The notes: a model not told the origin generated them from the sequence alone. Positions 3,436-37,026 are shown, counted from the first letter of the stretch. The stretch is DNA of 64,000 nt from Bacteroidales bacterium (GCA_017380635.1 JAFODP010000004.1:22828-86827), one strand, 5' to 3'. Translations and numbers: made by a program.

Positions 3436-4143
3436 ATGAAAACCAAACAGATTATTTTTATCGGCATGCTGCTTATTTCCAGCATGTTTGCGCAAAACAT
3501 CAGCGCACAGAACATTGAAAACACGCCTTACATCGAAGTGGTTGGTAGAGCCGAAAAAGACATTCTTCCCGACGAAATCTACCTGAGCATCAGCATCAAC
3601 GAAAGCGATTACGGCAAAGAATCGAGCCTGACAGCCAAAGAAAAACAAGTCATCAAAAGCCTGGAAAATCTCGGCATCGACATCAAGGAACAGCTGCGCG
3701 TGAAAGACTTGGGCAGCAATTTCAAGAAATACATTTTACGCAAGAACGAGGTGATACTCAGCAAGGAATACGAATTGAAAACCTCTTCGGCCAAACAGGC
3801 GGCGCAAGTGATGATTGCCCTCGAAAGCATCGGTGTTTCCAAAGTGAACATCACCAAAGTAGATTGCAGCCAAACGGAAACTTACCGCGACCAGTTGCGC
3901 GTGGAAGCCATCAAGAACGCCAAGGCCAAAGCCGAACAACTTTGCAACGCCATCGGTCAGACTTGCGACAGAGCCATTTACATCGTGGAACAAAATTATG
4001 GGCACCGCGTCTACAACGCCGTACCCATGTTCAAAGCTGCTCTGAGCAGAAGCGAATCAGCCGATGCTGCAGCCGTTCCCGATTTGGAATTCGAAACCAT
4101 CACTTTGGAAAGTAGTGTGGTGGCGCGCTTTATGATCAAGTGA
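3436..4143 (+). CDS. SIMPL/DUF541 domain periplasmic protein
   Basis: Signal peptide MKTKQIIFIGMLLISSMFAQNISAQ. Overall pattern (YIEVVGRAEKDILPDEIYLSISI ... RVEAIKNAKAKAEQL ...) is typical of 26-kDa SIMPL proteins. Confidence 0.75.
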   Translation: MKTKQIIFIGMLLISSMFAQNISAQNIENTPYIEVVGRAEKDILPDEIYLSISINESDYGKESSLTAKEKQVIKSLENLGIDIKEQLRVKDLGSNFKKYILRKNEVILSKEYELKTSSAKQAAQVMIALESIGVSKVNITKVDCSQTETYRDQLRVEAIKNAKAKAEQLCNAIGQTCDRAIYIVEQNYGHRVYNAVPMFKAALSRSESADAAAVPDLEFETITLESSVVARFMIK

Positions 4144-4182: not shown

Positions 4183-7100
4183 TTATCGTATCAACACCTT
4201 CTGACCATCGATAATGTACAAGCCCTTTGAAAGCGATTCGAGGGGCTTGTTCACTTTCTGTCCGAAAATATTGTAAATCGCACTATTGGGAGCTATCTCA
4301 ATGCGAACAATACCATCAGTACCCTGACGCAAAATCACCAACTTGGTAATAAAGACATTGGTGCCCGCCACCGAACGAACTATTTTGAAGCTTTTGCTTC
4401 CGGCTGCTTCGCTCAGCGAGTAAGTTTGGGTATTGGGCTTCTGACCGAGCGCGATATTGTTCCAACGCACTTCCTGGCCTTCGTCAATAACAAATCCGTT
4501 GTCGAAAAGATAATAAAGCGTACCATTGGCATCGGTGTCTTTGTTGCGGAAAGCCGTAACTTCCATCTGGTCGTCGGCCTGCAGCGCCTCGTCAAGACTG
4601 ATAAGCACATAGTCGCTTTCAATATTGGCCTTCTTAGCATTGATACTCAGCGTGTGATAATCGGCATTCACATAATTGACACGACCTTCACTGGCGCCAT
4701 GTCCGCTAGCCACACCACCTTTTTCGACAGGCGTTCCATGGGCACTCTGCCAGAAATACACCGCATTTTCGGGCGTTTCAGGTTCTGAAGGTTCAGATGG
4801 TTCTGAAGGTTCAGAAGGATTCGTTGCCTGCAGCCATTCCCATTCCAAACTGGCCATGATGAACGGACCGATAGCCTTACCTTCGTTGCTCACCACCGTC
4901 ACATCGCTGCCGCAGAGATAATAACTGGCGCTACCGTCGCGCTGACGATTGTTGGACGGGCCCAAGCCTGCCGAACGACAACTTTGGTTGATATTGATGC
5001 TGCCGTCGTTGTTTACCGTGATGAAAGTTTCCAACGCACCTTTATAAGCCGCTTCGGCCGTTTCGCGATACGATTCGTCAATCAAGCCCAAACGCAAAGC
5101 CTTCAGATAAGAGTAAGCAAACATACACGAAGCCGAAGCTTCCAAATAATTTCTATTACCACAAGTACCTTTATAACTGTCGTCGTATTGCAACAACTGA
5201 TACCACACGCCGCTAACAGGATCTTGCCAAAGTTTCAGTCCGGCAGCCACTTGCGAGAGAATATCCTTCAAGGCCTGATAATCTTCGTGCGTGGCAGGCA
5301 TCAATTCCAATACATCGGTGAGGGCAGCAAAATACCAACCCATACCACGTCCCCAAAATTCGCTCGAACAGCCCATATACTCACCTCCGGTCTTGGCCCA
5401 GAAAGAATTAGGATCTTTGGGTTCGGCACTCCAGCCATGATAATTCAACTGTAAATCCTTGTCGTAAGTATGACGATGAATGGTGATAAACTGATTGGCC
5501 ACATCGCTCCAGCCTTCCATATCGTCGGCCGCAAAATGATGCAAATATTCGGCATAGAAAGCAGCACCCATATACAAACCATCCAGCCACATCTGATTGG
5601 GATAGACATCCTTATGATAGAAACCACCTTTGCCATCTTCCTTCTGAATACGAGAATATTCGTAGCGCAAATAATGGTAGAGATAATCGGCAGCCGCTTT
5701 GTACTTGGCCGCATTGGCATCGCCCTGCGACGTTCCCTTAGACAATTCGCGGTCGTATAGTTCGAAGAAAACCTTACCCGAAGCAATGTTGTCGATATTA
5801 CCTTTTTTGAAATTTCTGAAACTACCGTCGCTATTGAGCGCGGCATCGGCATAAGTCTGACACCAAGCATAAGCTGTTTGCGTCCAGTCGTCTTCGGGAT
5901 ATTGTGTGGTACATTTCAAGATAGATTTTGTCACCAGACCGCTCACGTAATCCCACGATTTCATGGCCGACCAAGCTTCGCCCTGCGAGAGCACCATACG
6001 CTTAGAGTAATCGCTGTCTTTGGCCGTCATCGGCTCTTTCTTAGGCTGCACCAAATCGTCGATGGTAGCGCCGGCTCCGTATTTTCCTGTCAGCACCTCA
6101 GGCACTTGCATCACATCGATGTAAGGATATTGATAAGGCACTTCCATGTTTTGTTCGGTATTGGTAGCCTCGCCATAGTTCTGGAAGCCGTAATTGTTGC
6201 GGTTCAGGTAGAAAATATCACTAGAATTGCCAAATACACAAGCATTATTCACGCCTTCCACCACATAATTGCCTTCGATGAGCGCGTGCGAATTATCATT
6301 GATACCGATGGCCTCCGCATTGCCGGGACAATTGTAATAATTATTAAGAACGTGAATATACACCCAATCGGCCACCGGCAAACGACGGTTGCAGCCATTT
6401 CCCCAGATATTGTAGGCATAAGTAATGTATTGCAAATAACCTTTGCTCCAGCCCACTCCGTTGGAATAAGGATGCGAATAACTTCTTTCGGTATAACGGA
6501 AAATATTCCAAGAATAGGTGACGAATTGTTCGCTACCCTCGCGCTTGCCGCTATCGAGATTGCCATCGAGTCCGTCGATAAATTCGCAATGGTCAATCCA
6601 CACGTGCGTGGCACCATTGTTCGAGATAAGATCGTTTCCGCCAACGTCCACACTACCAGGGCCTTGGAAAATAAGGTTGCGGAAGATGATGTTTTCGTTG
6701 CTGATGTTGATGGCAAAAAAGCCCGACTTGCGGTAGGCTTCTGAATCGTCGCCCGTGATGTCGATGATGAGCTGACGCGTTTTCAGTTCGCGTTCCTCGT
6801 TCACGGAGGCGCCATTGCTCAGCGTGCCGCCGGTGCCGGAAGAGGTGCTGTATCGATCGAGATTAGCATCGATGAGTTGCTGCTTCAATTCGGGCGTCAC
6901 ATACCATTTCGTGCAAAGTCTGGCGCCATTGATACCGATGATACTTTTGTTGGATACGCCTTTGATATCCATTTGTTTAGAGACAATAAAATCGCCTTTC
7001 GATCCATCCAAATAAATAATATCGTTAGCCTTGATGGCATTGATAATGGCTTGATAATCGTCGCCGCCGGAGGCTGTCAATACGATGCTTTTAGGATTGT

Positions 7101-7272
7101 CGGCGCGTTGGCCACCGTCCAAGTTGTAGGGCGTTCCGTTGACATCGCTGCAAGTGCCCCAACCAAAGGCATTGAGACTGATATAGGGCCTAGCATCGGC
7201 CGCGTAGGCATAACTTGCAGATAATAACATGGAAACCAGGAGCGTAAGGCTCAAAAGTTTATTTTTTCTCAT
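4183..7272 (-). CDS. Multidomain secreted pectinase: PL1 pectate lyase + GH105 unsaturated rhamnogalacturonyl/galacturonyl hydrolase + beta-sandwich region + T9SS CTD
   Basis: - Signal peptide: MRKNKLLSLTLLVSMLLSASYAYA.
- PL1-like motifs: HVWIDHCEF, DGNLD, NRRLP, VLNNYY.
- GH105 motifs: QMWLDGLYMGAAFYAEY, FWGRGMGWYF, SGVWYQLL, YLEASASCMFAYSY.
- Linker: PSEPSEPSEPSEP.
- C-terminus (...IYNIFGQKVNKPLESLSKGLYIIDGQKVLIR) is T9SS CTD-like. Confidence 0.85.
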   Translation of the reverse strand: MRKNKLLSLTLLVSMLLSASYAYAADARPYISLNAFGWGTCSDVNGTPYNLDGGQRADNPKSIVLTASGGDDYQAIINAIKANDIIYLDGSKGDFIVSKQMDIKGVSNKSIIGINGARLCTKWYVTPELKQQLIDANLDRYSTSSGTGGTLSNGASVNEERELKTRQLIIDITGDDSEAYRKSGFFAINISNENIIFRNLIFQGPGSVDVGGNDLISNNGATHVWIDHCEFIDGLDGNLDSGKREGSEQFVTYSWNIFRYTERSYSHPYSNGVGWSKGYLQYITYAYNIWGNGCNRRLPVADWVYIHVLNNYYNCPGNAEAIGINDNSHALIEGNYVVEGVNNACVFGNSSDIFYLNRNNYGFQNYGEATNTEQNMEVPYQYPYIDVMQVPEVLTGKYGAGATIDDLVQPKKEPMTAKDSDYSKRMVLSQGEAWSAMKSWDYVSGLVTKSILKCTTQYPEDDWTQTAYAWCQTYADAALNSDGSFRNFKKGNIDNIASGKVFFELYDRELSKGTSQGDANAAKYKAAADYLYHYLRYEYSRIQKEDGKGGFYHKDVYPNQMWLDGLYMGAAFYAEYLHHFAADDMEGWSDVANQFITIHRHTYDKDLQLNYHGWSAEPKDPNSFWAKTGGEYMGCSSEFWGRGMGWYFAALTDVLELMPATHEDYQALKDILSQVAAGLKLWQDPVSGVWYQLLQYDDSYKGTCGNRNYLEASASCMFAYSYLKALRLGLIDESYRETAEAAYKGALETFITVNNDGSININQSCRSAGLGPSNNRQRDGSASYYLCGSDVTVVSNEGKAIGPFIMASLEWEWLQATNPSEPSEPSEPSEPETPENAVYFWQSAHGTPVEKGGVASGHGASEGRVNYVNADYHTLSINAKKANIESDYVLISLDEALQADDQMEVTAFRNKDTDANGTLYYLFDNGFVIDEGQEVRWNNIALGQKPNTQTYSLSEAAGSKSFKIVRSVAGTNVFITKLVILRQGTDGIVRIEIAPNSAIYNIFGQKVNKPLESLSKGLYIIDGQKVLIR
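4781..4818. repeat. 9-bp tandem repeat encoding the (PSE)n interdomain linker
   Basis: GGTTCTGAAGGTTCAGATGGTTCTGAAGGTTCAGAAGG consists of about four copies of GGTTCWGAW. It translates on the minus strand to PSEPSEPSEPSEP. Confidence 0.8.
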
Positions 7273-11087: not shown

Positions 11088-11792
11088 CTAGTTCTTCAAG
11101 TAATACGACACCGAAGTCACCACGCGCACTTTCTTGATATAAGGCGTGTTCTGATCTCGGTTGCTGATGGTAAAAGTGCCTTGGCTGGCATCGCTGATCT
11201 TGCCGAGTTTACTGCCCGAATCTTTGGCAAATTTTTCGGCTGCTTCGCGCGCATTACGCGTAGCTTCTTCTATCATTTCCGGCTTGATGTCGTTCAAAGC
11301 CTCGTAGGTAAATTCCACGGGATTTTCCCAATTGTTTTCCGCAATCAGCACATTCTTGGTAAGCAATTCCGACTGACGCGACATCAACGAACGCACCAAA
11401 TCCACCTGCGAACTGCAAACGGTAATCACCGAAGTGGCAATGTATCGGTAAGCGCGGTTGTTGTCGCCATATTCGTTGGCAAATTTGTCCGAAATGGAAG
11501 GATTGGCCACCGACACTTCTTCGCCCGCAATGCCATTGCGCTGCAAAAAGCGTAGCACTTCCTCCTGCTGACGGGCAATTTCGGCATACAATTGCTGATT
11601 GTCGTTAGACATCACCTTGAAAGTAATGGGCCAAATTACCTTGTCGGCTTTCACCTCGCGTTCGCACAAACCTTTCACATACACCGTTCTGTTGGAACTG
11701 CGCATCACTTTGACGGCCACGGGCATCATCGCACCCAAAAACATCAGTCCCAGCATAATACAAATGCCGCCGTAGAATTTTCCTTTGTCCAT
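11088..11792 (-). CDS. SIMPL/DUF541 domain protein with N-terminal membrane anchor (last gene of the caspase operon)
   Basis: N-terminal TM segment: GGICIMLGLMFLGAMMPVAV. Pattern VYVKGLCEREVKADKVIWPITF ... EATRNAREAAEKFAKDSG resembles SIMPL. It lies 10 nt downstream of the preceding gene. Confidence 0.7.
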   Translation of the reverse strand: MDKGKFYGGICIMLGLMFLGAMMPVAVKVMRSSNRTVYVKGLCEREVKADKVIWPITFKVMSNDNQQLYAEIARQQEEVLRFLQRNGIAGEEVSVANPSISDKFANEYGDNNRAYRYIATSVITVCSSQVDLVRSLMSRQSELLTKNVLIAENNWENPVEFTYEALNDIKPEMIEEATRNAREAAEKFAKDSGSKLGKISDASQGTFTISNRDQNTPYIKKVRVVTSVSYYLKN

Positions 11793-11802
11793 GGTAATAA
11801 GT

Positions 11803-12672
11803 TTATTGCTTGATATCGATATACATCACCTTTACGCCCATGTGAGTATCTCTGGCACGACGCTTATTCAGCCAATTGGTAAAATCGGCAAAACTCAATT
11901 GTCTTGGCAATCCATCTTGCAACTGCGTATCGACAGCCTTTGTGAAAGGATTCTCAGAGAAAATGACGTAGATACGATTTCTCTCAACAGGCGCCGAAGA
12001 AGTCAAAGTATATTCATCTACGATGGCTTTTTCCTTGGGTTCCTTATCTATAGAGAAAAATACATATTCTTGTCCGTGCTTCACCGGATACAAACCATCG
12101 GCATCACCCGCATAAGGGAGCAAGCAATATGCATCGGGGGCCTCATCTACCAAATACACAGCCACATAACCATCGGAAGGAGCCTTGAAATGCAGATACA
12201 TATCGTCGCCCGTTCTGAAGTGCGTGTCGGCAAATTTCAGGTCGGTACCGTTTTTCAATACAGAAGCAGAGAAATCGGCAATCTCGTTGCTCACCGCGCG
12301 GGCCATACCACAAACACTACATTTCACCACCAACATATCTTGCACAAACTCAATACTATACACAGGATCTCCAACATTTTCCAGCCATTCACCCTTCACC
12401 TCGACAGAACTCAATTGAGAGAAAAAGGTATGATCGCCTGCGTCATCGTGGGTCTCTGTCTGCATGGTGCTTTGAGCCACCACCGTGCCGAATTCTTGTG
12501 CCAAGGCTTGCAACTTCGCTTTTTCCAAGGCAAAAGCTTTTGCCTCATTCACAGAGACATCGCCTTCAGCATAATAGACATATTCTCCACAAACTTTCTT
12601 ATTTCGCTGTGCCGAGAGAGAAAAGGCAACAGAGAAAAGCAACAGAAATCCCAGTAGTTTTATCGCTTTCAT
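11803..12672 (-). CDS. Exported LPP20-like / DUF4384 domain protein
   Basis: ATG at 12672. Signal peptide MKAIKLLGFLLLFSVAFSLSAQ. The C-terminal half (FRTGDDMYLHFKAPSDGYVAVYLVDEAPDAYCLLPY...RIYVIFSENPF) fits my recollection of the DUF4384 pattern (GD-x-l-x-f, dGYv-vy, LlP). Confidence 0.6.
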   Translation of the reverse strand: MKAIKLLGFLLLFSVAFSLSAQRNKKVCGEYVYYAEGDVSVNEAKAFALEKAKLQALAQEFGTVVAQSTMQTETHDDAGDHTFFSQLSSVEVKGEWLENVGDPVYSIEFVQDMLVVKCSVCGMARAVSNEIADFSASVLKNGTDLKFADTHFRTGDDMYLHFKAPSDGYVAVYLVDEAPDAYCLLPYAGDADGLYPVKHGQEYVFFSIDKEPKEKAIVDEYTLTSSAPVERNRIYVIFSENPFTKAVDTQLQDGLPRQLSFADFTNWLNKRRARDTHMGVKVMYIDIKQ

Positions 12673-12688
12673 TATTGTTTGGTTCATA

Positions 12689-15268
12689 TTATTCAAGGGT
12701 CGTATTTGAGTTGACATCCTCAGCGTTATCTGTGGCCACCTCGATACGATTGTTCAACTTGAGTGCCTGCCAATCGGAAGTAATATAGTTCGATACAGAA
12801 ACCGTCGGCGTCTGGCGCTTATCATTAATCAGAATGGATTCTCTACCCACATTATCTCTAACGTATTCACTAAGTTCCATCAAGGTGATGTCACCCTTGG
12901 TTTCTTGCAGTTTTTTCAAAAGGAAGTAAGTGAACATTCCATGACCTTTATCCTTGTAGGGCATAGCGGTTTCGTCGTTAGATACAGCGCTGAAAACAAT
13001 GGTATTTCCGGTGGGGACAGCCATTTTAGGCTTGATAGCCACACCACGAGCATCGGCCACCATACCTCCATCACGTTTCGAACCGCTGAAACAAGCATCC
13101 ATAAACACCATCACCGAGCGAGCTTCCATAGCCCCCAACTGCGCATAGATATCAGTCAGAGAGAAACGGACACCAGTACTCTTGCCATTGGCATCGGTAG
13201 GCAGCAAATATGCATCACGACTCGATTCATCGGGAATACCATGACCAGCATAATAGAAAATAACGTCCATATCGCCACCACGCACAGAGGCCAAGGAAGT
13301 AATCTTGTCCATAGCTTCGAGCATGATACCATATGAAGCATCCGTGTAGAGCAATACATTCTTTTCGGGAACACCCAAAGTTTTCTGGCAATACTCAGCA
13401 AAAACTTCGCCATCGTGCAAGGCAAAAGGCACCTTGGGAACACGGGTATAATTTTCGTTGGCAATCACCACTGCATAAAGACTTTCGTTCTGAGAAGCAT
13501 TTTGAGGAATGTTCACATCCACATCGGAGCGGATAGCGCCCACCTTGACAGATTGCTTGCCAACATTAGGTCCATTGCCCGATTCTGCGGCATACATTTC
13601 GCCCGAGAGAGGATCGAAGGTCACGTCTACCACAGTTTCCACATAGTTCAAGTTTTTGTCCACATCGTAACGATAAGATTTTCCGGTAGGCATCACAAAG
13701 GTAATACCCGACAATTGCAGTTTATCGTTATTGATGTAAAATTCAGGATTTTCAAATTTCACAGCCGTCCAAGTACTTTCAAAGGTTTTGGCTTCGTTGT
13801 TGGCACGAGGCACGGGAAGAATAATGTTTCCATATCTCGATTCTACCAAGAACACTTCATGGTCGGCATCGTAAGGTTTCAGAGACATATCCTCGATACG
13901 AACCTTCTGTGCATAGTTGGCAATGTATTTCTTTTCAGCTTCTTCAAGAAGTTCTTTAGCCTTTAGCTTTCGCGTTTCTTCGGTCACACGCACTTGGTAT
14001 TCGGCAATGGTTTCGTATGGATCCTTAGCTTGCCAGTCGCGGATACGGGGTTCCACATATTCCTTGGCAAATAATGAATACAAAGGAGCTTCCACTTCGG
14101 CAGTCGATTGACCGGCGCCATAGACTGTACCCGAAGAAGCATTGGCATTGTCAGAGAAAGCCACCAAAGAAGGAGCCACATCGACAGCCACTGTAGGAGC
14201 GCCCAAATTGGCCAACTTCATATTGATATTATCCAATTGTTCTTTATTACCCTTGTAACTGTAAGCCGTAGCTAAGGCAGTCATGTACTTTACGTTATTA
14301 GGGGTATTGTACACCACACTTTCCAGCACAGGAATAGCAGCCATGAAATAATTATCAGCCTGTTGGTCATACATCTTGGCATCTTTCTTCGATTCGGCCA
14401 TATTCGAACGAACATAATTCATCACGGCCATATTGTAATAGTTCAAAGCCAAATGCTGAGAAATACCCAAGTTACTGGGAGAAAGTTTGTTCAACTGATC
14501 GTAGATGGCCAATGCACTCTGATAATCCTGCATTTCTTCGTACAACTGACCTTGCATGCTCAAAAGACCTTCGTCCTGTGGACTCAGTTCCAAAGCCTTA
14601 CTGATGTACTCCTGCAATTTCACCTTATCTTCAATAATCAGACAAGTGTTGATAGCCATTTTCAGAACTTCCAAATTGGCAGGATACTGCATCATCATCT
14701 CATTCAGAACGCTCATGGTCATCTGATAATCTTGAACATTGGTGTGGGCCTTAGCCAAAAAGTAATACACATTCTGACGATTGTTGGCCACACCGGTATC
14801 GAGGTAAGCCCTCAAATACTTGATAGCACGGTTAAAATCTTGTGTATTGTAAGTATTGGCGGCAGCGAAGTATGCCATGGTCGGATACATTTCACCATGC
14901 ATGGTCATGTCATTCCTAAATTCAGGCATCAAAGCCACATCCACATACGACTGAGCAGCTTTCAGCGCCTTGGCCGGCTGACCATGATTCGAATAATAAG
15001 CCGCTGCATTATACAAATAAGGATACAATTCACGGATAACACCTTTGGCCTGGTTGTAAGCAGGTGTACTAGGTGAATACATAGTAATAATGGCTGCATA
15101 ATCATCGTAACAAGTCTGTAGCGCCGTGTACAACTGATCGTCAGAATTTGCCTGCGTCTTCAGCAAATTAAATTGTTGATAGTTGGCAGCCGCTTTTTCT
15201 ATATTCTGCGCCTGAACCAGACAGACAGCCATCAAAAACAAAATAATGATTCCAAAAAATCGTCTCAT
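12689..15268 (-). CDS. Exported TPR-repeat protein with a C-terminal caspase-like (peptidase C14) domain
   Basis: Signal peptide MRRFFGIIILFLMAVCLVQAQ (ATG 15268; an alternative ATG lies at 15289). The N-terminal ~350 aa are helical TPR-like repeats. The C-terminal domain has the caspase His-Cys dyad context IFYYAGHG ... VFMDACFSGSKRDGG. Confidence 0.8.
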   Translation of the reverse strand: MRRFFGIIILFLMAVCLVQAQNIEKAAANYQQFNLLKTQANSDDQLYTALQTCYDDYAAIITMYSPSTPAYNQAKGVIRELYPYLYNAAAYYSNHGQPAKALKAAQSYVDVALMPEFRNDMTMHGEMYPTMAYFAAANTYNTQDFNRAIKYLRAYLDTGVANNRQNVYYFLAKAHTNVQDYQMTMSVLNEMMMQYPANLEVLKMAINTCLIIEDKVKLQEYISKALELSPQDEGLLSMQGQLYEEMQDYQSALAIYDQLNKLSPSNLGISQHLALNYYNMAVMNYVRSNMAESKKDAKMYDQQADNYFMAAIPVLESVVYNTPNNVKYMTALATAYSYKGNKEQLDNINMKLANLGAPTVAVDVAPSLVAFSDNANASSGTVYGAGQSTAEVEAPLYSLFAKEYVEPRIRDWQAKDPYETIAEYQVRVTEETRKLKAKELLEEAEKKYIANYAQKVRIEDMSLKPYDADHEVFLVESRYGNIILPVPRANNEAKTFESTWTAVKFENPEFYINNDKLQLSGITFVMPTGKSYRYDVDKNLNYVETVVDVTFDPLSGEMYAAESGNGPNVGKQSVKVGAIRSDVDVNIPQNASQNESLYAVVIANENYTRVPKVPFALHDGEVFAEYCQKTLGVPEKNVLLYTDASYGIMLEAMDKITSLASVRGGDMDVIFYYAGHGIPDESSRDAYLLPTDANGKSTGVRFSLTDIYAQLGAMEARSVMVFMDACFSGSKRDGGMVADARGVAIKPKMAVPTGNTIVFSAVSNDETAMPYKDKGHGMFTYFLLKKLQETKGDITLMELSEYVRDNVGRESILINDKRQTPTVSVSNYITSDWQALKLNNRIEVATDNAEDVNSNTTLE

Positions 15269-15278
15269 AAAAATTATA

Positions 15279-17351
15279 TTATAATGCATCTACGAAAATC
15301 ATTGAAACACTGATACGACGATATTCACCGCCCTTACCTTTGCTCAGTTCGATATGATACTTGTAATCAACATCCATATCAGAAACCCCCTTGATATTAT
15401 TGGTAATGTACTGACCAACACCCAAGGCACGCAACATTGCCAATTGTTCGTTCTGAGTAATACCACCCTTCTTGGTCAGCGTAATATTACTTAGTTCATT
15501 GCCCTTATACATGGGTTCTTTTTCCAATTCTCCATAACAACCATCGTAAGCAATCTTGCCATGAATAGGCATAGAATCGGCCATACCCGTGATATGAAGA
15601 ATCAGTTTCTTACCTTCCTTAATATACTTCGAGAATTCGCCTTCGAAAGCTTCCTTCATAATGGACAACATCGACATAGCCGCGCCGGAATCTTCCACTT
15701 TGTACTTACCGGGAGCAAAGTCTTCTTTGGCAGAGAATCCCACTTCCACCTCGTACGACAATTCGATACTATAGTTTCTGATATTATTTCCTTCGGCATC
15801 TACATCCGTTTTGATGTCGGTGTTAACCGAGATGTTGGTATGGTCGGAAATCACATTTCTTTCCTTGGCGGTTTCAATCACGGCCGTCTTAATTTCCTGA
15901 AGCATCACTTCTTGCATATTGGTCTGTTGAACCAATTCGAGAGGCACAAATTCTTCTTCAGACACCAAGAATTCAACATCACGTTTTTCGGTGTTGTCGT
16001 AAGTATAAGACTTACCTGTAGATTTGTTATACACTTCGGCATAAATCAACTCAAACTTATCGTCCTCGGTAATACCATACTTCGCGTTACGGAATTCCAA
16101 ATTGCCGGGATCCATAAAATCGGTCACTTCTTCGTTAGGAACGGCCAAATAAATAGAAGGCATATTGTCGAAATTCACCGCCAACATATTAGACTCGGTG
16201 CTGTAATTACCCAAAGACACTTCCGACATCTGTACCATATTTTCAGCCAACTGAGTAGAAATTTCCTGTTCAAAAAGACGCATTTGCTGTTCACGGCTTT
16301 CATCGTTTACACGAAGTGAGTAGGCTTCCATACTTTCATTAGGCATCTGCTTCAGCCATTCAGCCATATTCTTATCTACTTGATCTGAAATCAATTGCTT
16401 GTAATAAGGCACCAAAGATGTCATCAACTTATAGACGATGGACAAATAATTGTTATACACCAGGAACACCTGATTATCAGCACCTTCAATAAAAATAGTT
16501 TCTGTAATACCGCCATTTTCATTGGTAAACGACAAACGGTCTTTGTTGTCGAGCAAGTTGACGATAACAATGCTGTCTTGAGATGTCAAAACCGACACAT
16601 ATTTTCCGCTGGGATGGAAATCGCAATGCTTTGCTTCTCCCAATTCGCCATAAGTTCCTTGCAAGGTAAAGTGTTGAGTATCATAGATAGACAACACACC
16701 ATCGGCTGTTACCACGGCCATAGACTTACTATCGTCCGAGAAGCTGAAAGCGTTCACCTTGCTATCTTTCTGCAAAGTTGTACGCAGGTTCTTGCTTTCG
16801 TAATTCCATACTGACAACGAAGAATCGCAGGCACTGGCTGCCAAGAAATAAGAATTCGGACTCACAGCCATATAATTAGCCGTAAAAGCCGTAGGAATAT
16901 TCACGATAGGTTCGTAAGTTCTAGCATCGTACACCAGAATCTGGTTTTCAGTAGAAATAAGGAAATTTTTGGCATTCGGTGTGTAAGCGATCGCACTGGG
17001 ATTGACCAATTTCTTATACGACTTGAGAAGAACATCCACACCATGAAAATCGTATACAGAGACTTTCTTCACATCCTTTTTCTGAGAAAGAATGGCATAA
17101 GACGAACCAGAAGGATTAATTTTCAACGACTTAATCATTCCATCAACTTCACAAATCGGAAAGCTCCTCATGGTAAAAGCTTGGGATTCATCGAAGAAGT
17201 ATGAAGCCATATAATAGCTGTCAAAACCACTGGGACAAGCTTTCGTAGTAAACACGTACTCGCTCTTGTACTGGCCGCCTTCCGATTGCGCCATCAGCGG
17301 AGCGGACATCATAATCAATGCAAAGGCAATCATGCTGAAGATTGCCTTCAT
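15279..17351 (-). CDS. Exported WD40/beta-propeller-like protein with a C-terminal OmpA-like (peptidoglycan-binding) domain
   Basis: Signal peptide MKAIFSMIAFALIMMSAPLMAQ. The first ~320 aa contain repeated beta-strand blades (VSVYDFHG, ILVYDARTYEP, LSVWNYES, LSIYDTQHF, IVIVNLLDN). The C-terminus (ITGMADSMP...NEQLAMLRALGVGQYI...GGEYRRISVSMIF) resembles OmpA_C. Confidence 0.6.
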   Translation of the reverse strand: MKAIFSMIAFALIMMSAPLMAQSEGGQYKSEYVFTTKACPSGFDSYYMASYFFDESQAFTMRSFPICEVDGMIKSLKINPSGSSYAILSQKKDVKKVSVYDFHGVDVLLKSYKKLVNPSAIAYTPNAKNFLISTENQILVYDARTYEPIVNIPTAFTANYMAVSPNSYFLAASACDSSLSVWNYESKNLRTTLQKDSKVNAFSFSDDSKSMAVVTADGVLSIYDTQHFTLQGTYGELGEAKHCDFHPSGKYVSVLTSQDSIVIVNLLDNKDRLSFTNENGGITETIFIEGADNQVFLVYNNYLSIVYKLMTSLVPYYKQLISDQVDKNMAEWLKQMPNESMEAYSLRVNDESREQQMRLFEQEISTQLAENMVQMSEVSLGNYSTESNMLAVNFDNMPSIYLAVPNEEVTDFMDPGNLEFRNAKYGITEDDKFELIYAEVYNKSTGKSYTYDNTEKRDVEFLVSEEEFVPLELVQQTNMQEVMLQEIKTAVIETAKERNVISDHTNISVNTDIKTDVDAEGNNIRNYSIELSYEVEVGFSAKEDFAPGKYKVEDSGAAMSMLSIMKEAFEGEFSKYIKEGKKLILHITGMADSMPIHGKIAYDGCYGELEKEPMYKGNELSNITLTKKGGITQNEQLAMLRALGVGQYITNNIKGVSDMDVDYKYHIELSKGKGGEYRRISVSMIFVDAL

Positions 17352-17402
17352 GGGCACATTTTCCATAAATCTCTTTAGTTTAGTTAATATTTATATTTAT
17401 AT

Positions 17403-17825
17403 TTATTCCACTTTCTCGTACACAGCCGTCACGCCAAATTCGTCTTCGTAGGCGAGCGTCTGCAAGGTCAGTTTGGTAATATGATATTGTTTGGGGATGA
17501 TAGCGTCGCTGATTTCCATTTTGTGCAAATGCGTGAACAGCGTCTTGTCTACCGTCCAGGTGAAATGCGAAGCTTCTTCTTCCTTGATATCTTCGGCAGC
17601 ATCCCAGGTAAGGCCCGTGCCATCAGCATTGTAACGATAATACATCGAGCCCGAACGCCACAGTCCGATAAGCAGGTCGGGATCCACTTTCAGTTTTTCA
17701 AACACTTCGGGTTCAATCACTTCCGGTTGATGTACACGCTTCTGATAACGAATCACAAAAACGGCAGTAGCCGCCAAAGCCACGAGCAACAAGCCCATCA
17801 GCAAAAATACTTTCTTGTTTCTCAT
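17403..17825 (-). CDS. Small membrane-anchored hypothetical protein (lipocalin-like beta domain?)
   Basis: N-terminal TM anchor VFLLMGLLLVALAATAVFVI. It lies 4 nt downstream of the preceding gene and has no recognisable catalytic motif. Confidence 0.55.
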   Translation of the reverse strand: MRNKKVFLLMGLLLVALAATAVFVIRYQKRVHQPEVIEPEVFEKLKVDPDLLIGLWRSGSMYYRYNADGTGLTWDAAEDIKEEEASHFTWTVDKTLFTHLHKMEISDAIIPKQYHITKLTLQTLAYEDEFGVTAVYEKVE

Positions 17826-17829
17826 CTCA

Positions 17830-19395
17830 TTACAGTTTTTTCAGTTTGATAATCTCAGGCGTCTGATCTTTAAACTCCGGCATCGACATACCGATGGAAG
17901 CATTCACGTAAGTGGGATCGCAAACATAATATTTACGGCCGCCATAATTGAAAGCATCGCCCGTCAGCTTGGGATCCGCCTCAAAACTTACCGCCGTGGC
18001 CACATGACCTTCGTATTGCAAACCCAGCACTTTGGCCTCGGTAAGCTGGGTCACCAGCCAAGAAAACAAAGCCGAACGGTCTTCGCAATCGCTGTAAGGA
18101 TAGGCAATTACTTCTTCGGGATAAAAATATTTTTCGTAGCCGAATTGCTGTTCGTCGGTTTTATAGGCAAAAGCCGATTGCACGAAAGCAAGCAAAAGCG
18201 CCACCATTTCCTGCTGACTGTAACGCGATTTCTGTGCCGAGAAATAATCGAGCAAAGCCTGTTGCGCTTCGGTGGGCGCATCGGTGCTGAAATAAATGGG
18301 GAACACCGTCATGGGCACATCGTCCAGATAAGCCATGTGACTGGAGTTGTAAGGCAATTGCAAAACAGCTTTTTGCTTAGGCACTTGCAGGCTGCGTTTC
18401 TTGTCGCATGCGCCAATTTTCAGCGTCTGATCGAAATCGAGACCCATCTGTCGCAACACCTGATCTTGTTCGTTGAAAGCGTAAGAATAAATGCTTTCCT
18501 TGGCCGTGCCGCCGCCATAAACGGTATAATATTTGATGTTTTCTTCGTTTTCCTTGAAGCGGAAAAAGATATACGAATACACTTCCTTGTCGTTGTCGAT
18601 GGCCAACAAAAGCGTCAACTTGCCCGATTCGCGTCCGCGAGCCAATTTCACCTTGTAACCACCCTGATTGCGAAGCATATAGAAAAGGAAAAGCACGCGG
18701 TCGTCGCTATTGCTGTGGATGGTTTCGGCCACCGAACGCAACAAACAGAAATGTCCCCAATCGTTCAAACCGAAATTCTTCGCCTGCTCATCGATGGCTT
18801 TCCACAGACTTTCGCTTTCGTATTTGCAACGCGACATAGCACGGAAATAAGCCGCCGCATCGTTTTCCTTGGCGCCTTTGGATTTCACGCAAAGACTCTG
18901 GCTGCAAGGAATGGTCAAAGGACGTCCGTAGAAATCGATCTGCGCCTGATAACCATTGTACACGCCCGGCTTGATTTGATTGGGCACATAAGCCTCGCTG
19001 CTGCCTTGCTCGCTTACCACGGTGCGCATGGCATAAGCACCCGGAGCTGCTGCGCCCGCATGAGTGGTGGGCTGCGTGGTTTCGTCAAAGTTGATGACGG
19101 TTTCCGTTGCCTCGGTACCGGGAGCCACCGGCGCTGCCGTCAATTTAGGTCGCCCCAGACGCAAAGCCGTTTGCTTCATATCTTCGTACACCTGCCACTG
19201 ACGTTCCATAAAGGCCGCATATTCCTCGTTCTGTCTATCGGAAAAAGCCTTGAACTCGGCATCGCGCTGCTCTTCGAAAGCCGCGAAACGACTATTGATC
19301 TGATCCAAATAATCCTGATTGAAATTGCTCTGCGCCGCAGCTGTCAGACAAAGGCCAAACAACAACGAAATCAGACTTAACTCCTTGTATCTCAT
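17830..19395 (-). CDS. Exported transglutaminase-like (papain-fold Cys-His-Asp) protein
   Basis: ATG at 19395. Signal peptide MRYKELSLISLLFGLCLTAAAQ. The C-terminal core YSDCEDRSALFSWLV ... YEGHVATAV ... YYVCDPTY has the spacing and context of the transglutaminase-like C/H/D triad. Confidence 0.6.
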   Translation of the reverse strand: MRYKELSLISLLFGLCLTAAAQSNFNQDYLDQINSRFAAFEEQRDAEFKAFSDRQNEEYAAFMERQWQVYEDMKQTALRLGRPKLTAAPVAPGTEATETVINFDETTQPTTHAGAAAPGAYAMRTVVSEQGSSEAYVPNQIKPGVYNGYQAQIDFYGRPLTIPCSQSLCVKSKGAKENDAAAYFRAMSRCKYESESLWKAIDEQAKNFGLNDWGHFCLLRSVAETIHSNSDDRVLFLFYMLRNQGGYKVKLARGRESGKLTLLLAIDNDKEVYSYIFFRFKENEENIKYYTVYGGGTAKESIYSYAFNEQDQVLRQMGLDFDQTLKIGACDKKRSLQVPKQKAVLQLPYNSSHMAYLDDVPMTVFPIYFSTDAPTEAQQALLDYFSAQKSRYSQQEMVALLLAFVQSAFAYKTDEQQFGYEKYFYPEEVIAYPYSDCEDRSALFSWLVTQLTEAKVLGLQYEGHVATAVSFEADPKLTGDAFNYGGRKYYVCDPTYVNASIGMSMPEFKDQTPEIIKLKKL

Positions 19396-19439
19396 AACTT
19401 TAATGAAAGAATCGGCAAACATTCGCCAAAAGTAATTTG

Positions 19440-19473
19440 CAAATGTAATGAAAGCTCTGCGAAGAATAACAAA
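19440..19473 (-). promoter_or_regulatory. Candidate Bacteroidetes promoter for the 19395->11088 operon
   Basis: On the minus strand there is TTTG at 19473-19470, a 22-nt spacer, then TACATTTG (TAnnTTTG) at 19447-19440. The box ends 45 nt upstream of the ATG at 19395. Confidence 0.4.
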
Positions 19474-19705: not shown

Positions 19706-19731
19706 GCAGCGCTCGCATTCGCGAGCGCTGC
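19706..19731 (-). terminator. Hairpin terminator downstream of the ferritin gene
   Basis: A perfect 11-bp stem GCAGCGCTCGC/GCGAGCGCTGC has an ATTC loop. It lies 47 nt past the ferritin stop at 19778-80. On the minus strand it is followed by ATGTTTTAT. Confidence 0.6.
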
Positions 19732-32492: not shown

Positions 32493-32779
32493 GTTAGGGA
32501 TTTTGTTATTCTTTATAGATTTATTGAACAAATCAGGACAGAAATGCCGGATTGATACCGAAGATAGAATAAGCACAGCAACATTTACAAAAAATAGCCA
32601 CCCTTAACATTCGGCACGATTTTTGTTAACATTTACTACGTGCCATCGGCATTCCGTTTTGCTTAAAATCCGTTTTCGGATACAACGGCAGTTTTCTACC
32701 AATCTTCCTGATAATTAAGATGGCGGAGTACCTCTCCGTTAGCAAGGAGAATTAACACTACAAACCTTTATATAATTTT

Positions 32780-34458: not shown

Positions 34459-35151
34459 CTATATCTCCTCCCCCGCATACTGCATTTTTTTGCCGAGGAC
34501 GGTGCAGAGAATCATTTGGATGTCCTTGATGAAACTGTAGTTGCGGTAGTAGTAGCAATTGAGGCGAACTTTGTCGGGGTAGATGATGTTGTCGTTGTAC
34601 CAAACAGCGATTTCTTGGTCGGTCATGGCAGAGAAATCGGGAACATCGGCCATCTTGGCCACCAGTTCATTTTTACCCGCTTTGATTTGCGCCACAAACT
34701 CGGCAATCATTTCATCCTCCACGCGGTACTTCAAAGTAGCAGGTCCCGTAATGCCAGGGCGAAGTTTCAAAACGTCACGGTCTTCGCCGGTAAGTTTATC
34801 GGCATATCCCGGCACGTCGGGACGAGGCCCCACGAAACTCATGTTACCAATAAAAACATCCCACAAACCAGGAAGTTCATCCAACTTGTAATGACGAAGT
34901 TTTGCGCCAAAGGGAGTAATGCGCGAATCTCCGGCCACCGATACCGTCGAACCATTGTGCGCCACCGTCATCGAGCGAAACTTATGACACTTAAACAATT
35001 TACCACCCTTACCCACACGATTTTGCACAAAAAACGCAGGGCCACCAGGCATTTTCACCTTAACAAGTATGGCCGTCACTAGTATCACAGGCCACAAAAA
35101 ACACAGACCGAGAAAAGCGACAATTCGGTCGAATAAAAATTTTAGGAGCAT
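34459..35151 (-). CDS. Initiating undecaprenyl-phosphate sugar phosphotransferase (small WbaP/PglC-type bacterial sugar transferase)
   Basis: FDRIVAFLGLCFLWPV re-entrant helix, KFRSM, and VGPRPDVPGY...LRPGITGPATL. Confidence 0.88.
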   Translation of the reverse strand: MLLKFLFDRIVAFLGLCFLWPVILVTAILVKVKMPGGPAFFVQNRVGKGGKLFKCHKFRSMTVAHNGSTVSVAGDSRITPFGAKLRHYKLDELPGLWDVFIGNMSFVGPRPDVPGYADKLTGEDRDVLKLRPGITGPATLKYRVEDEMIAEFVAQIKAGKNELVAKMADVPDFSAMTDQEIAVWYNDNIIYPDKVRLNCYYYRNYSFIKDIQMILCTVLGKKMQYAGEEI

Positions 35152-35984
35152 TATCTAAACACTTTATACGCAATTTTCTTTACCCAAGCTGGTGATACCA
35201 ACATAACAAACATCATATAGCCAAAAACGGTAGCCCCGAAACCATAACCCAAAGTTTTATTTATAAGCTTTCGATCCTTTAATTGCTTCTTGGCAAATGC
35301 CCAACCATTACGACGTTTCTTGAATAAAGAATCTGTAAATCTAAACTGCAACACCACATCCGGAATATTCGCATGTCTTGTACCGGCTTTCATTCCATCT
35401 AACCAAAGCATTGTATCTTGATTCTGACGATATTCCGGACGATACTTACATCCTGCTTTTTCAAAGAAAGATTTTCTGAATAACACAGCAGGATGTGCAT
35501 GAGGATTTCTTTTTGAAAAGAATTTATAACAATCTTCAGGAGTTTCCGGATACACAATAGTCTTTCCGTTGCTCTTGCCATCTGCATCAATTTCTGTTAT
35601 GGCACCACCAACAACATCAATATCAGGATGCGCCTGCAGATATCTCATCTGTTTTTCTAAACGATCTGGCATAGATATATCATCAGCATCCATTCGAGCA
35701 ATGTACTCATAGCCTTCTGCAAAACAAACCTCCAACAAATCGTTTAACACCACAGCCAATCCTCTGTTCTCGGCAAACCATAACACTTTTACATTGTCTC
35801 TCTTTTCATATTCTTTTAATGTGTTACTTAAATCTTCACCTATAGGTCCATCAACACCAACCAACAACTCCAAATCTTGGTATGTCTGATTCAAAACACT
35901 ATCCAACGACAATCTCAAATATAAATCTTGGTCGTTTTTATATACGGGGAGAATTATTGCCAGATTGTTCATCGTACAATTCAT
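35151..35984 (-). CDS. Glycosyltransferase family 2
   Basis: ILPVYKNDQDLYLRLSLDSVLNQTY...GVDGP, and a DAD (ARMDADD) motif. The start is ATG 35984 or 35972. The listed ORF start at 36086 overlaps the upstream gene. Confidence 0.85.
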   Translation of the reverse strand: MNCTMNNLAIILPVYKNDQDLYLRLSLDSVLNQTYQDLELLVGVDGPIGEDLSNTLKEYEKRDNVKVLWFAENRGLAVVLNDLLEVCFAEGYEYIARMDADDISMPDRLEKQMRYLQAHPDIDVVGGAITEIDADGKSNGKTIVYPETPEDCYKFFSKRNPHAHPAVLFRKSFFEKAGCKYRPEYRQNQDTMLWLDGMKAGTRHANIPDVVLQFRFTDSLFKKRRNGWAFAKKQLKDRKLINKTLGYGFGATVFGYMMFVMLVSPAWVKKIAYKVFR

Positions 35985-35992
35985 CAATATGC

Positions 35993-36970: not shown

Positions 36971-37026
36971 AATACTATACAATTGTCAATACTAATGATA
37001 CTATTAGTGCTTTATTTACTCTTAAT

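What the first reader, a model, noticed from the sequence alone, without database searches (positions are those of the whole stretch)
11088..19473. Six-gene, entirely exported operon combining a TPR-caspase, a transglutaminase-like protein, a beta-propeller/OmpA-like protein and DUF4384
Seen in sequence:
- Six minus-strand genes are separated by gaps of 4-51 nt, downstream of a good TTTG/TAnnTTTG promoter match.
- Every product starts with a signal peptide or membrane anchor.
- One protein has ~350 aa of TPR-like repeats fused to a C14 caspase-like domain with an intact His/Cys context (YYAGHG, DACFSG).
- One protein has a transglutaminase-like C/H/D core (SDCEDRSALF, GHVATAV, CDPTY).
- One protein has WD40-like blades plus an OmpA_C-like peptidoglycan-binding end.
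- One protein has an LPP20-like plus DUF4384 region, and the last gene encodes a SIMPL protein.
Established knowledge:
- Bacterial caspase homologues with TPR/WD40 and DUF4384 partners recur in predicted programmed-cell-death or conflict systems, but those are typically cytoplasmic STAND-NTPase-linked.
- TPR + beta-propeller + OmpA_C is also the domain set of Tol-Pal/CpoB and of the T9SS component PorE.
Inference: this is a periplasmic or cell-envelope proteolytic and cross-linking machine of unknown role. Possibilities include envelope remodelling, cargo processing or envelope-level defence. As far as I know it has not been characterised.
Basis: partly seen in the sequence, partly recalled or inferred. 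Interest (0 to 1): 0.68.

Follow-up and report, generated by a model that had tools for sequence, protein, structure and literature searches.

The report
Exported caspase cassette in gut Bacteroidales
The six genes are real and all exported, but they are a resident three-gene locus plus a horizontally exchanged three-gene cassette that belongs to a widespread, uncharacterised envelope protease system of gut Bacteroidales.

Summary
The six genes and most domain calls are confirmed:
- caspase with an invariant His/Cys pair;
- seven-bladed WD40 propeller;
- DUF4384;
- SIMPL;
- invariant Cys/His/Asp in a LapG-like fold.

OmpA_C-likeness is only sub-threshold, and the LPP20 call is unsupported.

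The "operon" is composite. g1-g2-SIMPL is a resident locus. WD40-X (g3), TPR-caspase (g4) and the DUF4384 protein (g5) form a 5.6-kb cassette with these properties:
- lower G+C than its flanks;
- absent from a conspecific of a cassette-bearing relative at exactly the g2|g6 junction;
- present as two divergent alleles whose relatedness contradicts that of the flanks.

Across at least 146 Bacteroidales species g3-g4 is a fixed pair. It is usually followed by g5, a 211-aa secreted protein and a distant g1 paralogue (33 of 42 informative loci). So the caspase and transglutaminase-like link is real, whereas g2 and SIMPL are not part of it. Other versions add a CHASE2 membrane protein, or Mfa-like lipoproteins with a CRD-barrel protein.

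g3 and g4 share a previously unnamed ~150-aa domain. It marks about 940 clusters of exported caspases with swappable N-terminal domains.

My best reading is a periplasmic, probably peptidoglycan-tethered, Arg/Lys-directed protease module. Its physiological role is unknown, with envelope-level conflict most likely. I found no published characterisation.

The parts
19440..19473 (-). Bacteroidetes-type promoter-like match (TTTG, 22 nt, TAcaTTTG), 45 nt upstream of the g1 start codon
   Evidence: It is one of 6 matches in the window (3.4 expected by chance), so placement is the only argument for it. Transcription was not tested.
19706..19731 (-). GC-rich hairpin followed by T-rich tail after the upstream ferritin gene. 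It marks the upstream boundary of the transcription unit.
   Evidence: 11-12 bp stem, 9 G-C pairs.
17830..19395 (-). g1: exported 521-aa protein. It has an N-terminal long helix, an alpha/beta middle part and a C-terminal transglutaminase-like/LapG-like Cys-His-Asp domain (about nt 17833-18273). It is a resident gene, not part of the cassette.
   Evidence: More than 1100 full-length homologues, none with a Pfam domain. AlphaFold model and Foldseek hits to LapG, CPR-C4, BDI_1141 and PNGase. C438 45/45, H465 44/45, D494 43/45. 25% identity and E=1e-35 to the cluster-type paralogue.
17403..17825 (-). g2: 140-aa protein with an N-terminal anchor or signal peptide and a weak lipocalin-like signal. 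It is a conserved partner of the resident g1, not of the caspase cluster.
   Evidence: Pfam Lipocalin_4 E=0.023, below cut-off. The g1-g2 pair is kept in distant genomes without the cassette. No similarity to the 211-aa cluster protein.
11803..17402 (-). 5.6-kb g3-g4-g5 cassette inserted between g2 and SIMPL
   Evidence: The cassette is absent at exactly this junction in L001/L002, which are 96-97% identical in the flanks to cassette-bearing L009. G+C is 41-45% against 47-52% in the flanks. Window-L009 identity is 90-93% in the cassette against 79-83% in most flanking genes and 87% in ferritin. For L089 the opposite holds: cassette 72-79%, most flanks 82-88% (lipocalin 76%).
15279..17366 (-). 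g3: exported 695-aa protein. It has a seven-bladed WD40 propeller (nt 16422-17264), a caspase-associated 'mid' domain (nt 15957-16415) and a C-terminal probable OmpA_C-like domain (nt 15282-15701).
   Evidence: WD40. (mid domain). (OmpA-like, sub-threshold, with D597 and R646 invariant).
12689..15268 (-). g4: exported 859-aa protease. It has TPR repeats (about nt 14099-15205), the mid domain (nt 13655-14086) and a Peptidase_C14 domain (about nt 12794-13477). The His676 codon is at 13241-13243 and the Cys726 codon at 13091-13093.
   Evidence: TPR. (MALT1 paracaspase E=7.7e-5 with His and Cys aligned). (H and C 69/69, Asp724 69/69). The same 859-aa product is called on public contigs.
11803..12672 (-). 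g5: exported 289-aa protein with an unassigned N-terminal domain and a DUF4384 domain (about nt 11947-12219). It is the candidate substrate or regulator of g4.
   Evidence: DUF4384 in 12/12. (conserved basic residue at the domain boundary, R/K in 59/61). DUF4384 is reported as often fused to proteases and as one C-terminal domain type of Csx30.
11088..11792 (-). g6: SIMPL/DUF541 protein with an N-terminal anchor. It is a resident gene and not part of the conserved caspase cluster.
   Evidence: Pfam E=6e-20. It lies directly after g2 in cassette-free relatives. It is next to g3-g5 only in this lineage, and it occurs elsewhere in the flank in 1 of 80 loci.

Best explanation
**What it is**
- The window holds two units fused into one transcription unit.
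- Unit A is resident: g1, an exported LapG/transglutaminase-like Cys-His-Asp enzyme; its small partner g2; and a SIMPL protein.
- Unit B is a horizontally exchanged cassette: g3, g4 and g5.
- Unit B is the core of an accessory envelope protease system found across gut Bacteroidales.

**How it most likely works**
- Shown: g4 is an active-looking paracaspase/metacaspase-type cysteine protease. It has a signal peptide and a TPR array.
- Shown: g3 is a WD40 propeller protein that shares a ~150-aa 'mid' domain with g4.
- Inferred: the two proteins pair through the mid domains. g3 tethers the protease to peptidoglycan through an OmpA_C-like end. The WD40 and TPR surfaces bind the trigger or the substrate.
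- Inferred: g4 cuts after Arg or Lys. Its dedicated target or regulator is g5, the DUF4384 protein, possibly at the conserved basic residue between its two domains.
- Inferred: a g1-family cysteine enzyme acts in the same pathway. Here the resident g1 would stand in for the cassette's usual paralogue.

**Likely role**
- The cassette is strain-variable, exists as divergent alleles and is exchanged between species.
- Relatives add a CHASE2 sensor with no cytoplasmic output domain.
- I therefore think the most likely role is regulated proteolysis in an envelope-level conflict or stress response, rather than housekeeping envelope assembly.
For: **Anatomy**
- Domain assignments.
- Catalytic residues are invariant.
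- The shared mid domain gives blastp E=1e-8 and aligns with invariant P, W, E, Y, R and GK.Y positions.
- Its profile finds 937 representative clusters. Eight of ten sampled alternative architectures place it in front of Peptidase_C14. Their N-terminal domains are absent, MORN, WG repeats or TonB_C.

**Conservation**
- g3 relatives occur in at least 146 species representatives, all Bacteroidales.
- g4 follows g3 in 77/80 loci. g5 is present in 60, the 211-aa protein in 51 and a g1 paralogue in 43.
- Among 42 compact loci with enough sequence, 39 have g5 and 33 have a g1-family gene.

**Export**
- Signal peptidase I-type signal peptides occur across all core families.

**Mobility**
- Presence/absence, G+C and identity contrasts.
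- Between alleles the WD40 blades (65%), g5 (72-74%) and TPR (80%) diverge most. The mid domains diverge least (90-93%). The family-wide trend is similar.

**Partners**
- CHASE2 partner in 22 loci.
- DUF4384 as a protease-associated domain and a Csx30 C-terminal domain type.
Against: - No biochemical or genetic data exist, and no interaction was modelled.
- The OmpA_C-like assignment is sub-threshold.
- The transglutaminase-like assignment rests on weak fold matches, with no sequence-profile support.
- Nothing identifies g5 as a substrate beyond adjacency and analogy.
- No conserved family in the cluster has an assigned toxin or pore-forming domain, and several have no assignable domain at all.
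- PADLOC gives only a generic caspase hit.
- The neighbours in the window are housekeeping genes, not a defence island.
- Repeat domains such as WD40 and TPR diverge fast under any model.
- The window's cassette lacks the 211-aa gene and its own g1 paralogue, so it may be a reduced version.
Confidence: 0.5

Rival explanations
1. Surface-structure maturation. The caspase is a periplasmic or outer-membrane-associated Arg/Lys-specific processing protease for type V pilins, adhesins or other surface lipoproteins. It would play the role that Arg-gingipain plays in Porphyromonas gingivalis. g3 would be its envelope scaffold, and g5, the 211-aa protein and g1 would be assembly factors.
For: - In Bacteroidaceae the cluster carries a CarboxypepD_reg-barrel protein in 28 loci. 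It carries one to three Mfa_like_1 lipoproteins in 14 loci, placed between g4 and g5. One of these is fused to FGE-sulfatase.
- 24/27 of the Mfa-like proteins have lipoboxes.
- Type V pilins of Bacteroides are cleaved after an Arg, for example R43 of BfrT. The paper read here does not name the protease.
- g4 aligns best to the Arg-specific paracaspase MALT1. It keeps an invariant Asp two residues before the catalytic Cys.
Against: - Only 14 of 80 loci have Mfa-like genes, and the window and its closest relatives have none.
- g4 has a plain signal peptide with no lipobox, so nothing points to surface exposure.
- The cluster is strain-variable, whereas type V pili are, to my knowledge, general in Bacteroidales.
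- Divergent alleles at one site fit a conflict locus at least as well.
Confidence: 0.2
2. Accidental juxtaposition. The cassette landed beside g1-g2-SIMPL by chance, so the six genes have no joint function. g1-g2 would be an independent protease and lipocalin-like partner pair, and SIMPL an unrelated envelope protein.
For: - The insertion boundaries are precise.
- The g1-g2-SIMPL locus is intact in relatives without the cassette.
- The g1-g2 pair is conserved alone in distant genomes.
- g2 and SIMPL are not found with g3-g4 elsewhere.
Against: - A g1-family gene lies in the cluster in 33 of 42 informative loci, in more than one gene order.
- Landing next to the resident paralogue while lacking its own copy is therefore unlikely to be chance.
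- The arrangement is kept in three diverged lineages.
Confidence: 0.2
3. Structural envelope tether. The cluster would be a PorE-like or Tol-Pal-like scaffold linking outer membrane and peptidoglycan. The enzyme-like domains would serve only as binding modules.
For: - The domain set TPR + WD40 + CRD + OmpA_C equals that of PorE. Here it is spread over g4, g3 and the CRD-barrel protein.
Against: - The catalytic His/Cys of g4 and the Cys/His/Asp of g1 are invariant across families that are only 31-56% identical.
- There is no lipobox.
- There is no sequence similarity to any solved OmpA_C-like domain; I know PorE's C-terminal domain to be among the solved structures.
- The system is accessory and strain-variable, not core.
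Confidence: 0.07

Closest known systems
Prokaryotic caspase homologues (orthocaspases/metacaspases, MEROPS C14) with accessory TPR, WD40, DUF4384, FGE-sulfatase or CHASE2 domains
   Same: - Same catalytic domain and His-Cys dyad.
- Same repertoire of partner domains as catalogued for bacterial and cyanobacterial caspase homologues.
- A fraction of those proteins were already predicted to be extracellular or to carry signal peptides.
   Different: - The partner domains sit on separate, co-conserved exported proteins.
- A previously unnamed mid domain links the protease to a non-protease scaffold.
- There is no NTPase.
- The whole unit behaves as an exchangeable cassette in gut Bacteroidales.
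Craspase (type III-E CRISPR): TPR-CHAT protease Csx29 with its substrate Csx30
   Same: - A TPR array is fused to a caspase-fold protease.
- The protease is encoded next to a dedicated small protein.
- One class of Csx30 C-terminal domains is DUF4384.
   Different: - Craspase is cytoplasmic, RNA-guided and bound to Cas7-11.
- This system is exported, has a C14 rather than a CHAT domain, and has no CRISPR or sigma-factor genes nearby.
LapG / bacterial transglutaminase-like cysteine proteinases (BTLCP)
   Same: - g1 is exported.
- Its model matches LapG best.
- It keeps Cys, His and Asp in the same order. From my own knowledge, LapG is a periplasmic protease that releases a surface adhesin.
   Different: - No sequence-profile similarity.
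- g1 is three times larger, with two extra N-terminal regions.
- No LapD-like partner is present.
PorE (PG1058) of the type IX secretion system
   Same: [quoted passage not shown]
- Found in the same phylum and the same cell compartment.
   Different: - PorE is one lipoprotein, whereas here the domains are split over three secreted proteins and joined to a protease.
- No detectable sequence similarity.
- To my knowledge the gut Bacteroidaceae that carry this cluster lack a type IX system.
MALT1 paracaspase
   Same: - It is the best solved-structure match of the g4 catalytic domain, with YYAGHG and D-x-C aligned.
- From my own knowledge, MALT1 is Arg-specific and is activated by scaffold-driven oligomerisation.
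   Different: - It is eukaryotic and cytoplasmic.
- It is only a distant match (E=7.7e-5).

Membership tests
Peptidase C14 (caspase/metacaspase/paracaspase) | Significant match to the caspase p20-type domain model | tested here: met
   PF00656 E=2.9e-18, 66.9 bits against a cut-off of 21.4. PADLOC caspase E=6.6e-11.
Peptidase C14 (caspase/metacaspase/paracaspase) | Catalytic His and Cys at the family's catalytic positions | tested here: met
   The profile alignment to MALT1 places YYAGHG on YYAGHG and DAC on DMC. H676 and C726 are invariant in 69/69.
Peptidase C14 (caspase/metacaspase/paracaspase) | Peptidase activity and P1 specificity | not testable with these tools
   The invariant Asp724 two residues before the Cys fits basic P1 specificity. 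This is an inference only.
Transglutaminase-like / BTLCP cysteine enzymes | Match to a transglutaminase-core or BTLCP sequence model | tested here: not met
   No Pfam hit even at E<=10 in 40 members. No PDB sequence hit.
Transglutaminase-like / BTLCP cysteine enzymes | Papain/transglutaminase-like fold of the C-terminal domain | tested here: inconclusive
   Foldseek top hits are LapG (E=1e-2, probability 1.0), CPR-C4, BDI_1141 and PNGase. TM scores are low, and model pLDDT is 68.6 overall and 80-90 in the domain.
Transglutaminase-like / BTLCP cysteine enzymes | Conserved Cys-His-Asp in that order | tested here: met
   C438 45/45, H465 44/45 and D494 43/45 across g1 and its distant paralogues. 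Superposition on a known triad was not possible.
OmpA_C-like peptidoglycan-binding domain | Match to the OmpA family model at its cut-off | tested here: not met
   Best E=0.03, 15.1 bits against 27.2, in 4 of 13 members. hhalign against Pal/OmpA gives E=0.039. No PDB profile hit.
OmpA_C-like peptidoglycan-binding domain | Beta-alpha-beta-alpha-beta-beta topology with the conserved Asp and Arg that bind the peptide stem | tested here: inconclusive
   The predicted strand and helix order fits. D597 in GMAD and R646 in LRA are invariant in 40 sequences. There is a 30-residue low-confidence insert, and no structural superposition was done.
WD40 beta-propeller | Repeat matches and a closed propeller | tested here: met
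   Multiple Pfam propeller models. PDB 2ymu E=2.6e-23. Model with about 28 strands, and Foldseek E down to 4e-15 with TM up to 0.81 to seven-bladed propellers.
DUF4384 | Match above the Pfam cut-off | tested here: met
   34.3 bits against 27. 12/12 family members match.
LPP20 lipoprotein family | Match to PF02169 and a lipobox | tested here: not met
   No hit at E<=1 in 12 members. 0/60 have a lipobox-like motif.
SIMPL (DUF541) | Match above the Pfam cut-off | tested here: met
   72.8 bits against 25.2.
NTPase-linked caspase conflict systems (STAND, EACC1-type) | A STAND or other NTPase, or EACC1, encoded with the caspase | tested here: not met
   None of the nine recurrent cluster families has a P-loop hit. 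The EACC1-type caspase model scores 66.8 against a cut-off of 140.
Type III-E Craspase | Cas7-11 and CRISPR array with a TPR-CHAT protease | tested here: not met
   No such genes lie in the window region or in the 80 loci. The protease is C14, and all proteins are exported.
PorE / type IX secretion | A single outer-membrane lipoprotein with TPR-WD40-CRD-OmpA_C | tested here: not met
   The domains lie on separate proteins without lipoboxes. No sequence similarity to solved OmpA_C-like domains.
Type V pilus locus | Mfa/FimA-like lipoprotein pilins in the cluster | tested here: not met
   None lie in the window. They are present in 14 of 80 related loci only.

The most novel reading that the evidence does not exclude
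The g3-g4-g5 cassette, with a g1-family enzyme, would be a periplasmic, NTPase-independent caspase surveillance system.
- The fast-evolving WD40 and TPR surfaces would recognise a foreign protein or envelope damage in the periplasm. Candidates are a phage component, a T6SS effector or a bacteriocin.
- The peptidoglycan-tethered caspase would then be switched on and would cleave the DUF4384 protein to trigger a protective or suicidal response.
- This would be a new compartment and a new logic for bacterial caspase-based immunity. The system would be exchanged between gut Bacteroidales as allelic cassettes.
Probability: 0.2. Interest if true: 0.85.

Novelty: new variant of a known kind. Interest (0 to 1): 0.62.

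Why it matters
- Bacterial caspase-fold proteases with a worked-out mechanism act in the cytoplasm, as far as I know. Examples are Craspase and the gasdermin-activating and STAND-linked systems.
- This is a widespread, fully exported version in dominant gut bacteria. It has its own scaffold protein, a second cysteine enzyme and a defining shared domain that has no name in Pfam.
- Its behaviour as an exchangeable, allelic cassette suggests it matters for strain-level fitness in the gut.
- Cultured carriers exist: Bacteroides timonensis, Mediterranea massiliensis, Odoribacter lunatus and Barnesiella sp. WM24. The function is therefore directly testable.
- If the pilin-maturation rival is right instead, it would identify a protease that the type V pilus paper read here leaves unnamed in Bacteroides.

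Tried and rejected
- **g3 C-terminus as a degenerate caspase domain.** hhalign against the g4 caspase profile gave E=0.086 and probability below 1%. The extra terminal hairpin, the RR motif and the GxxD...N..L..RA pattern fit OmpA_C better, so I rejected this.
- **The 211-aa cluster protein as a relative of g2.** No similarity.
- **The 281-aa upstream protein as a DUF4384 relative.** hhalign aligned only the signal peptides.
- **The 211-aa protein against the g5 N-terminal domain.** Not significant.
- **Word-indexed protein search with the mid-domain alignment.** It returned only five fragments, so one capped search was used to little effect. The exhaustive representative search then worked.
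- **Whole-model fold search of g3.** The propeller dominated the hits, so the C-terminal domain could not be searched alone.
- **Exact look-up of the 866-aa g4 ORF.** It failed because the real start is the second Met. The 859-aa form was found.
- **Plasmid collection.** Only generic caspase-domain hits, so there is no sign the cassette rides on known plasmids.
- **PADLOC.** Only a generic caspase model matched.
- **Literature searches.** Searches for DUF4384, CHASE2, caspase, WD40, Mfa and Bacteroides found no description of this cluster.
- **Sigma-70 promoter and terminator scans.** They were no better than shuffles, as expected for Bacteroidetes.

Full report
**1. The observation**

Six minus-strand ORFs occupy 11088-19395.
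- Gene starts, judged from homologues and from public gene calls, are g1 19395, g2 17825, g3 17366, g4 15268 (859 aa, not the 866-aa ORF), g5 12672 and g6 11792.
- Gaps are 4-36 nt.
- Upstream, the ferritin gene ends in a strong hairpin (19706-19731).
- A TTTG-N22-TAcaTTTG match lies at 19440-19473. The motif occurs six times in the window against 3.4 expected, so only its position speaks for it.
- All six products begin with a hydrophobic N-terminal segment. g1, g3, g4 and g5 have an A|Q site typical of Bacteroidetes signal peptidase I substrates.

**2. Domain assignments**

- g4 matches Peptidase_C14 (E=2.9e-18) and has TPR hits at aa ~130-290.
- A profile of the g4 catalytic domain finds MALT1 paracaspase (E=7.7e-5), with YYAGHG and D-x-C aligned. 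His, Cys and the Asp two residues before the Cys are invariant in 69 homologues.
- g3 has a seven-bladed WD40 propeller at aa 35-315.
- The g3 C-terminal 140 residues have the strand and helix order of an OmpA_C-like domain. They also have invariant GMAD and N.QLA.LRA motifs. Sequence tests stay below threshold: Pfam E=0.03 and hhalign E=0.039. I call this domain probable, not shown.
- g5 matches DUF4384 in all 12 members tested. An LPP20-like N-terminus is not supported.
- g6 is a SIMPL protein.
- g2 has only a weak lipocalin-like signal.
- g1 has no Pfam or PDB sequence match. It has more than 1100 full-length homologues.
- The motifs DCEDR, GH and DPT carry a Cys, His and Asp conserved in 45/45, 44/45 and 43/45 members, including distant paralogues.
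- The best fold matches of the g1 model are the periplasmic protease LapG, the CPR-C4 protease, BDI_1141 and PNGase. All have weak E-values. This favours a transglutaminase-like cysteine protease fold and gives no reason to prefer a cross-linking activity.

**3. The operon is composite**

- L001 and L002 encode a g1 that is 79% identical to the window's. They have the same neighbours: ferritin upstream, and patatin-like and lipocalin genes downstream. They carry only g1-g2-SIMPL.
- L009 has all six genes. It is 96-97% identical to L001 in 16 kb of flanks, so I take them to be one species. The two differ by a 5.65-kb block that starts right after the g2 stop and ends at the g5 stop.
- The block has 41-45% G+C against 47-52% for its neighbours. 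Between the window and L009 it is 90-93% identical in DNA, against 79-83% for most flanking genes and 87% for ferritin.
- A third lineage, L089, shows the opposite pattern. Its flanks are closer to the window (mostly 82-88%; lipocalin 76%), but its cassette is more distant (72-79%).
- So one chromosomal site carries an empty state and at least two diverged alleles, and their relationships disagree with those of the flanks. This is the signature of exchange by recombination.
- Between the two alleles, the WD40 blades (65% protein identity), g5 (72-74%) and TPR (80%) differ most. The mid domains differ least (90-93%). A similar ranking holds family-wide.

**4. What the cassette belongs to**

g3 relatives were found in at least 146 species representatives, all Bacteroidales. 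The families include Bacteroidaceae, Rikenellaceae, Muribaculaceae, Porphyromonadaceae, Barnesiellaceae, Paludibacteraceae, Prevotellaceae and Odoribacteraceae.

I clustered the ORFs in 80 loci. The recurrent families were:

| Family | Loci (of 80) |
|---|---|
| g3 | 80 |
| g4, directly downstream of g3 | 77 |
| g5 | 60 |
| secreted 211-aa protein, no Pfam match | 51 |
| ~499-aa protein, 22-31% identical to g1 over its whole length, same Cys/His/Asp motifs | 43 |
| CarboxypepD_reg protein with a barrel-like C-terminus | 28 |
| secreted 281-aa protein | 24 |
| CHASE2 membrane protein without a cytoplasmic output domain (E=1e-25) | 22 |
| Mfa_like_1 lipoproteins, one fused to FGE-sulfatase | 14 |

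- The commonest gene order is g3-g4-g5-211aa-g1-like. Circular permutations also occur.
- Among 42 compact loci with at least 4 kb after g4, 39 have g5 and 33 have a g1-family gene.
- The link between the caspase and the transglutaminase-like family is therefore real.
- g2 and SIMPL are not part of the conserved cluster.
- The window's cassette lacks its own 211-aa gene and g1 paralogue, but it sits beside the resident g1.

**5. A shared domain**

- g3 (aa 318-470) and g4 (aa 395-538) are homologous in this stretch (blastp E=1e-8; alignment with invariant positions).
- An exhaustive profile search finds 937 representative clusters, 512 of them at E<=1e-10.
- Besides the g3 and g4 architectures, I sampled ten others. 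In eight of them the domain lies directly before a Peptidase_C14 domain. Their N-terminal parts are absent, MORN, WG repeats or TonB_C.
- The domain thus marks a family of exported caspases with exchangeable targeting or sensing modules.
- Its presence in the non-protease g3 suggests that g3 and g4 pair through it. That step is an inference.

**6. Mechanism**

- Shown: an exported, catalytically intact paracaspase-like enzyme is strictly co-encoded with a WD40 protein that shares one domain with it. It is usually also co-encoded with a DUF4384 protein and a second Cys-His-Asp enzyme.
- Inferred:
  - g3 tethers g4 to peptidoglycan.
  - WD40 and TPR bind the trigger or target.
  - g4 cuts after Arg or Lys.
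  - g5 is its substrate or regulator.
- Support for g5 as substrate is limited to three points:
  - Position 130, at the boundary of its two domains, is basic in 59/61 members.
  - DUF4384 is reported as often fused to proteases.
  - DUF4384 is one C-terminal domain type of Csx30, the substrate of the TPR-CHAT protease Csx29.
- Strain variability, allele exchange and the CHASE2 partner make a conflict or stress role the most likely one in my view.
- The evidence does not exclude a role in maturing surface structures. The Bacteroidaceae version carries Mfa-like lipoproteins. Bacteroides pilins are cut after Arg by a protease that the paper read here does not name.

**7. Comparison with known systems**

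- The catalytic domain is a member of family C14.
- The system is not a member of the NTPase-linked caspase systems, because no NTPase is present and the EACC1-type model scores below its cut-off.
- It is not Craspase, PorE, Tol-Pal or a type V pilus locus. The membership table gives the tests.
- It resembles PorE only in its domain set.
- It resembles LapG only in fold.
- I found no paper describing the cluster. The library does not hold most subscription journals, so a published description cannot be excluded.

**8. Verdict**

- This is a real and well-conserved feature.
It is wrong about the unit: three of the six genes form a mobile cassette, and two of the six are bystanders.
- It is a new variant of the known class of bacterial caspase-homologue systems. 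It stands out for being wholly exported, NTPase-free and scaffold-linked.
- Interest is moderate to high.

Noticed in passing
window 35151-45523 and 48372-50822: A low-G+C block (29-34% against ~47%) encodes GT2 and GT4 glycosyltransferases, an acyltransferase and a TupA-like ATP-grasp protein. Nearby lies a Wzz/GNVR tyrosine-kinase-type chain-length regulator. This looks like a horizontally acquired capsule or exopolysaccharide locus.
   Followed up: partly
window 29808-32576 (-): A 922-aa protein with a KAP-family P-loop NTPase domain (E=4.5e-24). A KAP NTPase also lies near the locus in the relatives L001 and L002.
   Followed up: partly
window 3436-4143 (+) and 4183-7272 (-): A second SIMPL-family gene lies about 7 kb from g6. 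Next to it is a 1029-aa protein with no Pfam hit on the identical public contig.
   Followed up: no
L050 (whole locus); L033 and L044: One locus carries two caspase genes and three g1-like genes in tandem. One Bacteroides MAG has two separate g3 loci. So the system can be duplicated within a genome.
   Followed up: no
L005/L006 6916-9739; also L018, L021, L025, L027: In several Bacteroides loci a TPR-histidine kinase and a LytTR response regulator lie directly upstream of g3. They are a possible dedicated regulator.
   Followed up: no
L005 16670-18322: An Mfa_like_1 lipoprotein is fused to an FGE-sulfatase domain inside the caspase cluster. FGE-sulfatase is also a recurrent partner domain of prokaryotic caspase homologues.
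   Followed up: no
window 17830-17825 region; L003/L004 10001-12191: g1 is always followed by a small (140-146 aa) weakly lipocalin-like protein, even in distant genomes. The pairing recalls cysteine protease and beta-barrel inhibitor pairs such as staphopain and staphostatin. That comparison comes from my own knowledge and was not tested.
   Followed up: no
window 1-64000 vs L090: The window appears to be the public metagenome contig ERZ28019010 k141_1546344 (64,024 bp). The nine genes compared, from the lipocalin gene to the ferritin gene, are 100% identical in DNA. The nearest named relative is a roe-deer rectum Bacteroidales MAG, RGIG4528.
   Followed up: partly
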